A stretch of DNA of 64,000 nt from Shigella phage Tf: sequence record OR980947; one strand, 5' to 3'. The position numbers and the translations under genes were made by a program. Position 1 is the first letter of the stretch; every line of letters starts with the position of its first letter. A model generated the notes under the pieces. The model had not been told where the DNA came from. It ran no database searches and worked only from the letters and a program-made list of their open reading frames with translations. Of this stretch, positions 14,658 to 14,801 are shown piece after piece.

Positions 14658-14801
14658 AATTATCTTTGTAGATAAGTTATTAAGCTTACCTGTGAGTATG
14701 CGACCACAAAGGGTGAAAGGGTAAATTCTAGATTTAAACCCAACAAGGCACATCGCTACAGACCTTAAGCAAGTCTGGGTAGCTTATCTACAAAGATAAT
14801 T
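14658..14801. repeat. 144-bp element bounded by perfect 19-bp inverted repeats
   Basis: aattatctttgtagataag at 14658-14676 and exact reverse complement at 14783-14801. Confidence 0.6.

What the first reader, a model, noticed from the sequence alone, without database searches (positions are those of the whole stretch)
14658..14801. 144-bp element bounded by perfect 19-bp inverted repeats
aattatctttgtagataag (14658-14676) is exactly reverse-complemented at 14783-14801, enclosing about 105 nt with further internal hairpins. This could be a long RNA stem-loop within the tRNA precursor or a miniature inverted-repeat mobile element inserted in the cluster. The ORFs predicted across it are antisense or overlap RNA genes and are unlikely to be real.
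Basis: seen in the sequence. Interest (0 to 1): 0.5.

Follow-up and report, generated by a model that had tools for sequence, protein, structure and literature searches.

The report
Structured RNA beside phage Ro60 gene
The 144-base inverted-repeat element is not a jumping gene but a conserved, unannotated folded RNA inside the tRNA cluster of Felix O1-like phages, sitting next to tRNA-mimicking "Y RNA"-like elements and 1.1 kb downstream of a phage copy of the Ro60 RNA-binding protein, so it is most likely a further partner RNA of that protein.

Summary
Arms 14658-14676 and 14783-14801 are perfectly complementary, and pairing extends to 23 bp with G-U pairs. The window is a Felix O1-like phage.

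- **Not a mobile element.** The element (E) is single-copy. It always lies between a tRNA-like element and tRNA-Lys(UUU) in Felixounavirus, Mooglevirus and Suspvirus. It is absent from E. coli genomes and plasmids.
- **It is a folded RNA.** E exists in two sequence types that keep one fold through compensatory changes: closing helix P1, a bulged arm P3 capped by the invariant loop UUCUAGA, and hairpin P4 with loop CUUAAGCAA.
- **Context.** ORF 12122-13537, just upstream of the cluster, is a Ro60 (TROVE+vWA) structural homolog, already noted for phage Bas63 gp130. Four "units" (stem + UUACAGCAA ... GGUCUGG) lie in the cluster. Unit D, which abuts E, is a YrlA-type tRNA mimic. The same unit design flanks homologous genes in about 60 unrelated phage lineages and resembles Dictyostelium Class I RNAs.
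- **Reading.** E's P4 carries a collapsed copy of the unit signature. E is most likely a second, YrlB-like Y RNA released by tRNA processing. Binding and function are inferred, not shown.
- **Rivals.** A processing spacer, or a stable RNA with some other role.

The parts
14658..14801 (+). Element E: 144-nt structured RNA domain, a three-way junction of P1, P3 and P4 with a 19-nt joining strand
   Evidence: Conserved in two sequence types across Felixounavirus, Mooglevirus and Suspvirus.
14658..14680 (+). P1 5' strand (pairs with 14779-14801): 19 perfect pairs plus G-C, U-G, U-A, A-U, U-G
   Evidence: 23 pairs, 97.8% of cells paired. Three pairs change on both sides (U-A/C-G twice, G-C/C-G). 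One A-U pair is deleted on both strands together in type 2.
14779..14801 (+). P1 3' strand; ends 4 nt before tRNA-Lys +1 (14806)
14681..14699 (+). J1/3 joining strand UAAGCUUACCUGUGAGUAU (RGCUWA and UGAGU conserved in both types). No supported pairing.
   Evidence: Candidate pairing with the P3 bulge is not supported by covariation (sequence inspection of A2).
14700..14756 (+). P3 arm. P3a is GCGA/UCGC (14700-14703 with 14753-14756). A 9-nt 5' bulge lies at 14704-14712. P3b is GUG/CAC (14713-14715 with 14749-14751). P3c is 14719-14725 with 14733-14741. The apical 7-nt loop is UUCUAGA (14726-14732).
   Evidence: the same architecture is parsed in all 22 distinct sequences. P3b of type 2 keeps 7/7 pairs through A-U/G-C, U-A/C-G and C-G/U-A changes. 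P3c is GGG..CCC in type 1 and AGC..GCU in type 2. The loop is invariant.
14759..14777 (+). P4 hairpin CAGAC-CUUAAGCAA-GUCUG (followed by GG): a collapsed copy of the unit signature
   Evidence: G-C/A-U compensatory pair, 100% paired. AGACC + UUA(C)AGCAA occurs only at units A, C, D and here in 128 kb..
14526..14656 (+). Unit D, abutting E: closing stem AGACCGUU/AACGGUCU plus UUACAGCAA. Inside are a T arm (GAAGGUUCGAUUCCUUC), a closed 7-bp acceptor-like stem (ACUCGAC-AGAU-GUCGAGU) and a D arm (GUGUAAUGGUAGCAC). This is a YrlA-type tRNA mimic.
   Evidence: The acceptor-like stem has three unrelated sequences in relatives, all paired. The layout is as described for YrlA in PMC4201824.
13872..13944 (+). 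Unit A (CAGAAGACCAA-UUACAGCAA ... UUGGUCUGG)
14039..14098 (+). Unit B (CAGAAGACCGU-AUUCAGCAA ... ACGGUCUGG)
14436..14512 (+). Unit C (CAGAAGACCAA-UUACAGCAA ... UUGGUCUGG)
12122..13537 (+). Ro60-like protein gene (471 aa; Pfam DUF2828 + DUF7788, vWA with DVSGSM; PHROG 850 'RNA-binding protein')
   Evidence: Foldseek top 10 PDB hits are all Ro60/Rsr/TROVE; X. laevis Ro60 TM 0.65, E 5e-8. 34% identical to mycobacteriophage 'Ro-like RNA binding protein'. Bas63 gp130 is described in the literature.
13556..13676 (+). Two sigma-70-like promoter matches ahead of the first tRNA (13703): the probable start of the transcript that contains E
   Evidence: consensus matches only
14806..14881 (+). tRNA-Lys(UUU). 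Its 5' maturation by RNase P would set E's 3' end.
   Evidence: the processing step is inferred

Best explanation
E is a conserved, non-coding, structured RNA domain. It is a three-way junction closed by a 22-23-bp helix, transcribed as part of the phage's tRNA/Y-RNA precursor. It is probably released as a roughly 145-nt RNA with fully paired ends. Its 3' end would be set by RNase P cutting 4 nt downstream at tRNA-Lys. Its 5' end would be set by whatever cut forms the 3' end of the abutting unit D. I think E most likely belongs to the phage's Ro60/Y-RNA module as a second, YrlB-like Y RNA (a long hairpin with a T-arm-like loop), working alongside the YrlA-like tRNA mimic D. In this reading the P4 hairpin, a collapsed copy of the unit signature, contacts the Ro60-like protein encoded 1.1 kb upstream. 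P1 and P3 would then give stability or tether another factor such as a host exoribonuclease, as Y RNAs do. SHOWN: the fold and its conservation; the fixed position; absence of mobility and of coding; the Ro60-like fold of the neighbouring protein; the unit family and its linkage to such genes. INFERRED: transcription and processing; binding to the Ro60-like protein; any role in countering host defence.
For: Structure:
- 98.3% of pair cells are standard pairs, against 29-45% when partners are slid.
- Four pairs change on both sides, and one base pair is deleted on both strands together.
- P3 architecture is kept in 22/22 sequences, with further compensatory changes.
- z = -5.4.

Fixed locus:
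- Every one of 39 loci carrying this tRNA-Lys has E between D and the tRNA.
- About 250 GenBank phages carry E: 242 records match a type 1 query and 62 a type 2 query, and the two sets partly overlap.

Ro60 context:
- AF2 model pLDDT 85.5.
- The top 10 PDB matches are all Ro60/Rsr/phage Ro60.
- Homologs in mycobacteriophages are annotated Ro-like.
- Bas63 gp130 is Ro60-like, a counter of the ppl defence, and its authors guessed that Y RNAs hide among the tRNAs.
- The Ro60 of Thermus phage phiLo binds two phage-encoded Y-like RNAs and PNPase.

Y-RNA precedent:
- Characterised bacteria have two or more Y RNAs encoded within 2 kb of Ro60.
- One is a tRNA mimic and one a long hairpin.
- M. smegmatis YrlA and YrlB are cut from one precursor, and YrlB has a possible T arm.
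- D plus E reproduce this pairing.

Unit family:
- 109 strict units occur in 75 loci, concentrated within about 1 kb either side of the DUF2828 gene.
- The P4 composite signature is unique to the units and E in the window.
Against: - No expression, end-mapping or binding data exist for E.
- The canonical Ro-binding motif (GNCGAAN0-1G / CGAA) is absent from the window's E. Only 2 of 22 variants have GCCGAAG.
- P4's loop lacks the C that is invariant in the unit motif. A collapsed-unit covariance model does not find P4 at E <= 10.
- No Rfam family, including Y RNA, tRNA and tmRNA models, matches E at E <= 10.
- No E-like element was found beside homologous Ro60-like genes in 9 other phage lineages. 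Linkage with the gene is therefore seen in one clade only and could be plain synteny.
- A perfect 22-bp duplex is unusual for a Y RNA stem, which normally carries a bulged Ro-binding helix.
Confidence: 0.45

Rival explanations
1. E is a cis-acting processing element of the polycistronic tRNA precursor. The long perfect helix P1 would be an RNase III-type cleavage site, or a leader structure that positions RNase P on tRNA-Lys. The excised core would have no function of its own.
For: P1 is a helix of at least 22 bp, the size RNase III needs (established knowledge), and it ends 4 nt before tRNA-Lys. A paralogous stem end (UCUUUAAAGAUAAUU) also lies directly upstream of the next odd tRNA at 15289 (D6/I2). 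E abuts unit D with a 1-nt spacer.
Against: A mere cleavage site does not need about 100 nt of interior with an invariant loop (UUCUAGA) and two further helices kept by compensatory change across genera. The other 20-odd tRNAs of the cluster do without such an element.
Confidence: 0.25
2. E is a stable trans-acting phage RNA unrelated to Ro60. It could be a decoy or inhibitor for a host nuclease or defence system, for example a tRNA-Lys anticodon-loop mimic in P4. Or it could be an RNA of the same enigmatic kind as T4 RNAC/RNAD.
For: T4 transcribes two small stable RNAs of still unknown function from its tRNA region. P4 (CAGAC-CUUAAGCAA-GUCUG) loosely resembles the neighbouring tRNA-Lys anticodon arm (CAGA-CUUUUAA-UCUG). 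E is lineage-specific.
Against: No sequence similarity to the T4 RNAC probe sequences (by eye). The P4 resemblance to the genome's own units is closer than to the tRNA-Lys arm. Adjacency to a YrlA-like RNA and a Ro60-like gene is a simpler context.
Confidence: 0.17
3. E is a miniature inverted-repeat transposable element (MITE) inserted in the tRNA cluster.
For: Perfect 19-bp terminal inverted repeats and a MITE-like size.
Against: - One copy in the window.
- No empty site in 39 related loci.
- No target-site duplication: the flanks are GGT and TAA.
- No match in 5,426 E. coli genomes or 72,556 plasmids.
- The arms evolve by compensatory changes and a paired deletion, which selects for pairing rather than for a transposase-binding sequence.
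Confidence: 0.02
4. The inverted repeat works at the DNA level, as a cruciform, a protein-binding palindrome, an origin or a packaging signal.
For: A perfect 19-bp palindromic pair can in principle extrude or bind a dimeric protein.
Against: Arms 100 nt apart are not a typical operator. The interior hairpins P3 and P4 also covary, which points to a single-stranded fold. The + strand folds better than the - strand (-50.2 vs -44.8 kcal/mol, with G-U pairs specific to the + strand).
Confidence: 0.03

Closest known systems
Bacterial/phage Y RNAs of the YrlB / Yrn2 type (Ro60-bound long-hairpin RNAs encoded beside YrlA)
   Same: Encoded within 2 kb of a Ro60 homolog on the same strand. Directly adjacent to, and probably co-transcribed with, a YrlA-type tRNA mimic. 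The 5' and 3' ends pair in a long stem. Contains a possible T arm (loop UUCUAGA). Size about 100-150 nt.
   Different: No GNCGAA/CGAA Ro-binding motif in the window's copy. The closing stem is a perfect 22-bp duplex without a bulge. No sequence or covariance-model similarity to any described Y RNA. Binding to the Ro60-like protein is untested. The protein itself is the divergent DUF2828 branch of the TROVE fold.
The stem + UACAGCAA 'units' next to DUF2828/Ro60-like genes (window units A-D; about 60 other phage lineages), which resemble Dictyostelium Class I RNAs (Rfam RF01414)
   Same: P4 has the units' stem sequence (GAC(C)/G(G)UC + UG) and a 9-nt loop that matches the unit motif at 8 of 9 positions. 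It lies in the same cluster.
   Different: In E the signature is an internal hairpin with no interior, not the closing stem of the RNA. The motif's invariant C is replaced. Model R1 does not detect it. E has an extra 22-bp helix and a large arm that the units lack.
T4 RNAC and RNAD (species 1 and 2 RNAs)
   Same: Small stable non-tRNA RNAs encoded inside a phage tRNA cluster and matured with the tRNAs; function unknown.
   Different: No detectable sequence similarity (only the published RNAC probe was compared, by eye). No link of the T4 RNAs to a Ro60-like protein came up here, and whether T4 encodes one was not checked (its relative KVP40 does).
Miniature inverted-repeat transposable elements
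   Same: Terminal inverted repeats and size.
   Different: Single copy, fixed orthologous position, no target-site duplication, absent from host genomes, arms kept by compensatory change.

Membership tests
Y RNA (Ro60-associated ncRNA; YrlA/YrlB type) | Encoded close to (within about 2 kb of) a Ro60/TROVE-vWA gene, on the same strand | tested here: met
   E starts 1.1 kb downstream of ORF 12122-13537 on the + strand. The ORF's model matches Ro60/Rsr/phage Ro60 as the top 10 PDB hits.
Y RNA (Ro60-associated ncRNA; YrlA/YrlB type) | 5' and 3' ends pair to form a long stem | tested here: met
   P1, 23 bp, with 3 compensatory pairs and a paired deletion
Y RNA (Ro60-associated ncRNA; YrlA/YrlB type) | Conserved Ro-binding motif (GGUCCGA in animals; GNCGAAN0-1G / CGAA in bacteria and phage phiLo) in or next to a bulged helix | tested here: not met
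   The window has GCGACC. Type 2 has GCCGAUGA in the P3 bulge. Only 2 of 22 variants read GCCGAAG (motif).
Y RNA (Ro60-associated ncRNA; YrlA/YrlB type) | tRNA-like module or T arm | tested here: inconclusive
   The P3c 7-nt loop UUCUAGA fits U-U-C-N-A of a T loop, on a covarying stem. No D-loop partner was identified, and the tRNA models do not hit.
Y RNA (Ro60-associated ncRNA; YrlA/YrlB type) | Physically bound by the Ro60 protein, with accumulation dependent on it | not testable with these tools
   Needs RIP/CLIP, EMSA, or Northern blots in a gene knockout
Phage DUF2828-linked stem + UACAGCAA units (Class I-like RNAs) | Terminal 6-bp stem starting with G, 3' strand followed by NG (mostly UG) | tested here: inconclusive
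   P4 can be read as GAC/GUC + UG (type 1) or GACC/GGUC + UG (BPSELC-1). It is internal to E and only 3-4 bp in that register.
Phage DUF2828-linked stem + UACAGCAA units (Class I-like RNAs) | Motif N-U-[A/U]-C-N-G-C-A-A directly after the 5' strand | tested here: not met
   The loop is CUUAAGCAA / CUUUAGCAA: 8 of 9 positions, with the invariant C replaced. Model R1 gives no hit at E <= 10.
Phage DUF2828-linked stem + UACAGCAA units (Class I-like RNAs) | Shares the composite signature of the same genome's units | tested here: met
   AGACC + at most 3 nt + U[UA][AUG]C?NGCAA occurs 4 times in 128 kb: units A, C, D and P4
MITE | Terminal inverted repeats | tested here: met
   19 bp perfect
MITE | Target-site duplication | tested here: not met
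   Flanks are ...GGTCTGGT and TAATGGAAG...; no direct repeat
MITE | Multiple copies and presence/absence polymorphism | tested here: not met
   One copy in the window. Present in all 39 loci with this tRNA-Lys. No match in E. coli genomes or plasmids.
Any curated RNA family (Rfam 15) | Covariance-model match | tested here: not met
   Nothing over E at E <= 10 in a 292-nt search or a 1.3-kb search
RNase III processing stem | Uninterrupted dsRNA of about two helical turns | tested here: met
   P1 has 19 perfect pairs plus 4 further pairs
RNase III processing stem | Cleavage by RNase III in vivo or in vitro | not testable with these tools
   Needs an rnc mutant host or purified enzyme

The most novel reading that the evidence does not exclude
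E, together with units A-D, is part of an unrecognised and widespread phage ribonucleoprotein system. In this system divergent Ro60 proteins (DUF2828 family, about 690 GenBank phages) would partner with arrays of small RNAs. These RNAs share one design: a terminal 6-bp stem beginning with G, UACAGCAA next to its 5' strand, and a 3' CUG. That is the design of the Dictyostelium Class I RNAs, so far thought unique to social amoebae. E would be a new, lineage-specific class of such partner RNA, in which the signature has collapsed into an internal hairpin on a scaffold with a 22-bp helix and a T-loop arm. It would contribute to the anti-defence activity reported for the Ro60-like protein of phage Bas63.
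Probability: 0.3. Interest if true: 0.8.

Novelty: new variant of a known kind. Interest (0 to 1): 0.6.

Why it matters
**Status in public records.** Felix O1-like phages are widely used typing and therapy phages. In the public records seen here E carries no RNA annotation: the feature listed under it is none, a spurious 'hypothetical protein', or the adjacent tRNA-Lys.

**What the preprint left open.** A 2024 preprint showed that the Ro60-like protein of the Felixounavirus Bas63 counters a host defence system. It guessed that some 'tRNA genes' downstream are really Y RNAs, but named none.

**What this analysis adds.**
- It pins down concrete candidates with coordinates and folds: four stem + UUACAGCAA units, one of them a clear YrlA-type tRNA mimic, and the abutting 144-nt element E.
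- These can be tested directly by RIP, EMSA and deletion.
- If E is a Ro60 partner, it broadens what a Y RNA can look like: no canonical CGAA motif and a perfect 22-bp stem.
- The unit family found on the way links phage Ro60 homologs, tRNA clusters, tmRNAs and, by design, the orphan Class I RNAs of Dictyostelium. That gives a testable lead on the function of both.

Tried and rejected
- **Rfam.** Searched at gathering scores on the whole window, and at E <= 10 on 1.3-kb and 292-nt stretches. Nothing matched over E. The only curiosity was a weak Dicty_Class_I_RNA hit on unit D.
- **MITE idea.** Rejected.
- **Coding on either strand.** Rejected: ORFs are not conserved.
- **HNH endonuclease insertion.** It is present in Felix O1 and garuso, but it replaces tRNA-Met downstream of tRNA-Lys and is unrelated to E.
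- **Pattern scans of IMG/VR.** The E core pattern and the tRNA-Lys pattern found only Ounavirinae-sized contigs plus one chance hit. The unit motif scan gave two chance hits in coding DNA.
- **Collapsed-unit covariance model (R1).** Too little information. It found neither P4 nor units A-D in the window, so it is uninformative to negative.
- **Mini-hairpins with a GCAA loop in other DUF2828 loci.** Not enriched on the gene strand.
- **E-like long inverted repeats beside DUF2828 genes in 9 other lineages.** None found.
- **Hammerhead or other ribozyme cores, SRP-like and tmRNA-like readings of E.** Considered by eye and dropped. The motifs do not fit and Rfam is silent.
- **Pairing of J1/3 with the P3 bulge (a possible pseudoknot).** Two type 2 variants break it without compensation, so it is not included.
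- **AFDB fold search.** Intended to see whether Dictyostelium has a DUF2828 protein, but the library was unavailable.
- **Literature.** No transcriptome of a Felix O1-like phage was found.

Full report
**1. The observation**

The window is a Felix O1-like myovirus. A 701-nt stretch around the finding is 98% identical to Escherichia phage REP5 and 97% to Salmonella phage Felix O1.

- The 19-mer at 14658-14676 is exactly reverse-complemented at 14783-14801.
- The repeat finder extends the arms to 22 nt. With G-U pairs the helix is 23 bp.
- Shuffles of the window give 0.06 matches to the 19-mer with up to 3 mismatches. The real window has just the two arms.
- The + strand folds at -50.2 kcal/mol, z = -5.4. 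The - strand is weaker, at -44.8.
- The element, here called E, lies in a cluster of 23 or more tRNA genes, all on the + strand. It sits between a non-tRNA stretch and tRNA-Lys(UUU), which starts 4 nt after the 3' arm.

**2. E is not mobile and not coding**

- In all 39 loci carrying this tRNA-Lys (GenBank relatives and IMG/VR contigs), E is present at the same place. There are 24 distinct upstream-region sequences (22 distinct E sequences) and no empty site.
- BLAST finds a type 1 version in 242 phage records and a type 2 version in 62. The two searches partly overlap, so E is present in about 250 records. Type 2 occurs in Mooglevirus, Suspvirus and some Felixounavirus.
- There is no second copy in the window and no flanking direct repeat.
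- There is no match in 5,426 complete E. coli genomes or 72,556 plasmids.
- The antisense ORF 14523-14753, which some records annotate as a hypothetical protein, is broken by 1-3-nt indels within type 1 and is absent in type 2.

**3. The fold**

The two sequence types differ at about half of the interior positions but keep one architecture.

- *P1 (14658-14680 with 14779-14801).*
  - 97.8% of cells are paired.
  - Three pairs change on both sides.
  - One A-U pair is deleted from both strands together in type 2.
  - Sliding the partners by 1-3 columns drops pairing to 29-45%.
- *P3, a long arm.* All 22 distinct sequences parse into this scheme.
  - A 4-bp base: GCGA/UCGC in type 1, GAGU/ACUC in type 2.
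  - An 8-9-nt bulge on the 5' side and a 1-nt bulge on the 3' side.
  - A middle helix. The 7-bp version of type 2 shows A-U/G-C, U-A/C-G and C-G/U-A exchanges with 7 of 7 pairs kept in all 12 sequences.
  - An apical hairpin, GGGUAAA/UUUAAACCC versus AGCAUGA/UUAGCU, capped by the invariant 7-nt loop UUCUAGA. This loop fits the U-U-C-N-A pattern of a T loop.
- *P4 (14759-14777).* It reads CAGAC-CUUAAGCAA-GUCUG and has one compensatory pair (G-C/A-U).
- *Joining strands.* A 19-21-nt strand joins P1 to P3, and 2 nt join P3 to P4.

No Rfam family matches at E <= 10.

**4. Surroundings: four 'units'**

Four elements share the layout CAGAAGACC-NN-UUACAGCAA ... NN-GGUCUGG. They lie at 13872-13944 (A), 14039-14098 (B), 14436-14512 (C) and 14526-14656 (D).

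- The motif occurs 4 times in the window against 0.08 expected.
- The NN positions next to the stem covary: CAA/UUG versus CGU/ACG.
- Unit D ends 1 nt before E.
- Inside D's closing stem are a T arm (GAAGGUUCGAUUCCUUC), a 7-bp acceptor-like stem closed by a 4-nt loop, and a D arm (GUGUAAUGGUAGCAC).
- In relatives the acceptor-like stem has three unrelated sequences, all paired: ACUCGAC/GUCGAGU, ACACG/CGUGU and ACCCUUC/GAAGGGU.
- This is the permuted tRNA-like design of YrlA, the tRNA-mimicking Y RNA bound by bacterial Ro60 (PMC4201824).

**5. Surroundings: the protein**

ORF 12122-13537 ends 166 nt before the first tRNA.

- It matches Pfam DUF2828 + DUF7788 and PHROG 850 'RNA-binding protein'.
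- An AlphaFold model from 32 homologs has pLDDT 85.5.
- Its ten best PDB matches are all Ro60/TROVE proteins. They include X. laevis Ro60 (TM 0.65, E 5e-8), D. radiodurans Rsr and the Ro60 of Thermus phage phiLo.
- tBLASTn finds the family in 691 phage records. These include mycobacteriophages where it is annotated 'Ro-like RNA binding protein'.

What the literature already holds:

- Bas63 gp130, the ortholog in a Felixounavirus, was noted as Ro60-like and as a counter of the ppl defence system. Its authors remarked that some downstream 'tRNA genes' might be Y RNAs (bioRxiv 10.1101/2024.10.10.617714).
- phiLo Ro60 binds two phage-encoded Y-like RNAs and host PNPase (PMC12135203).

The Ro60-like identity of the protein is therefore known. 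The specific RNAs are not.

**6. The units are a widespread family linked to this gene**

In 75 IMG/VR loci from unrelated phages that encode a homolog (39-44% identity), a strict descriptor finds 109 units. The descriptor is a 6-bp stem starting with G, one spacer nt, [AU][AUG]C[ACU]GCAA, the complementary strand, then NG.

- The units cluster within about 1 kb upstream (28) or downstream (48) of the gene, on its strand.
- A looser descriptor gives 239 hits on the gene strand, against 112 on the other strand and about 100 in shuffles.
- Lengths are bimodal: 50-60 nt, with an A/U-rich unstructured interior, and 100-260 nt. Some of the longer ones enclose a T arm, a closed acceptor stem and a D arm.
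- Many of these loci also hold tRNA clusters, and four hold a bona fide tmRNA.
- The Rfam model of Dictyostelium Class I RNAs gives full-length hits at exactly the unit boundaries in four of six loci tested, at 23-28 bits. These scores are below the gathering score of 41.5.
- Class I RNAs are described as about 60 nt long. They have a 6-bp terminal stem with an invariant 5' G, the motif CCUUACAGCAA next to the 5' strand, and a 3' CUGU. They were reported as unique to dictyostelids (PMC7919456).
- This is a resemblance of design. Whether dictyostelids have a DUF2828 protein could not be tested.

**7. How E fits**

Bacteria with a characterised Ro60 have at least two Y RNAs encoded next to the gene: one tRNA mimic and one long hairpin. 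In M. smegmatis YrlA and YrlB are cut from one precursor, and YrlB has a possible T arm. D followed directly by E reproduces this arrangement.

For the link between E and the units:

- P4 carries the stem of this genome's units (GAC(C)/G(G)UC + UG).
- P4's 9-nt loop matches the unit motif at 8 of 9 positions.
- The composite AGACC + motif occurs only at units A, C, D and P4 in 128 kb of both strands.

Against membership:

- The motif's invariant C is replaced.
- A covariance model of collapsed units does not find P4.
- The canonical Ro-binding motif GNCGAA is absent from the window's E. Type 2 has GCCGAUGA in the P3 bulge, and only 2 of 22 variants read GCCGAAG.
- No E-like element was seen beside the gene in nine other lineages.

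**8. Most likely mechanism (inferred)**

- Transcription starts at the promoter-like sites at 13556/13647. It runs through units, tRNAs and E, with no terminator-like site before tRNA-Ile.
- RNase P cleavage at tRNA-Lys, and the cut that forms D's 3' end, would release E as a roughly 145-nt RNA. Its fully paired ends should resist exonucleases.
- I rate 'conserved structured RNA, not a mobile element' at about 0.9.
- I rate 'partner RNA of the Ro60-like protein' at about 0.4-0.45.
- The main rivals are a processing spacer (RNase III-type stem or tRNA-Lys leader; 0.25) and an unrelated stable RNA of the T4 RNAC/RNAD kind or a decoy (0.17).

**9. Novelty and score**

- E is unannotated and matches no curated family.
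- Its class is best described as a new variant of a known kind: a Ro60-linked Y-like RNA, or a stable RNA of a phage tRNA cluster.
- Interest is moderate to high (0.6) for E itself.
- The unit family and its likeness to Class I RNAs, found in passing, would rate higher if confirmed.

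Noticed in passing
window 13872-13944, 14039-14098, 14436-14512, 14526-14656; loci L050-L124 within about 1 kb of the DUF2828 gene: There is a widespread family of small RNAs next to phage Ro60-like (DUF2828) genes. The design is a 6-bp terminal stem starting with G, then UACAGCAA next to the 5' strand, a variable interior (50-60 nt forms, or 100-260 nt forms, some with a permuted tRNA-like domain), and a 3' C-UG. I counted 109 strict instances in 75 loci. Long forms also carry ACGAAC next to the 3' strand.
   Followed up: partly
L075 6430-6489, L063 6417-6473, L096 6438-6514, L107 3960-4017; window 14531-14655: The Rfam model of Dictyostelium Class I RNAs (RF01414) gives full-length hits exactly on these phage units. 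Scores are 23-28 bits, and 14 bits for window unit D, all below the gathering score of 41.5. Class I RNAs share the stem, the CCUUACAGCAA motif, the 3' CUGU and the roughly 60-nt size, and were reported as unique to dictyostelids. Whether dictyostelids encode a DUF2828 protein was not testable here.
   Followed up: partly
window 15098-15287 (tag-like ORF 15134-15163, stops to 15169); promoter-like site 15056-15084: There is a tmRNA-like messenger domain. Rfam tmRNA scores 16 bits (E 1e-4 in a 371-nt search), aligned on AAAAUAAAUGCAAACGAC. The reading frame A-N-D-N-V-F-L-A-V-A-stop-stop resembles the E. coli tag ANDENYALAA. It is conserved in Mooglevirus and Suspvirus with synonymous or conservative changes. 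ARAGORN finds no tmRNA, and no canonical tRNA-like domain surrounds it. Bona fide tmRNA genes lie 1-4.5 kb downstream of the homologous Ro60-like gene in four other phage lineages (L075, L077, L096, L097).
   Followed up: partly
window 15289-15367: This is an odd tRNA-like gene directly after the tmRNA-like domain. Relatives annotate it as tRNA-Arg(UCU). In the Rfam alignment it has 4 nt in place of the D arm and a long variable region (31 bits), and ARAGORN misses it. Its 3' part (GAGUAAGUGGAGUAUGCGGGUUCGAGUCC...ACCA) loosely resembles the 3' end of tmRNA.
   Followed up: no
window 14289-14371: The tRNA-Asp homolog has a 15-nt anticodon loop, against 7 nt in the 77-nt tRNA-Asp of Felix O1. 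ARAGORN misses it and REP5 annotates it as 'tRNA-OTHER'. It is either an insertion that inactivates the tRNA or an unusual loop.
   Followed up: no
window 14886-14962 versus L001/L002 (garuso, Felix O1): In Felix O1 and garuso an HNH endonuclease gene (162 aa, about 490 bp) occupies the place of the window's second tRNA-Met, between tRNA-Lys and tRNA-Ile. This is a presence/absence polymorphism of a homing-endonuclease-like gene inside the tRNA cluster.
   Followed up: partly
window 49805-50080 (- strand): A group I catalytic intron (Rfam RF00028, 62.9 bits, above the gathering score).
   Followed up: no
window 14723-14735 and type 2 copies: The invariant apex of E (UGAUUCUAGAUU in type 2) is 11/12 identical to the 5' D-loop analogue of E. 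coli tmRNA (UGAUUCUGGAUU). The tmRNA models do not hit E, and the segment caps a covarying hairpin, so this may be chance.
   Followed up: no
window 15258-15287 versus 14783-14801: The hairpin just upstream of the odd tRNA at 15289 (AUCUUUAAG...CUUUAAAGAUAAUU) ends with nearly the same sequence as E's 3' arm (CUACAAAGAUAAUU) upstream of tRNA-Lys. This could be a shared leader or processing motif.
   Followed up: no
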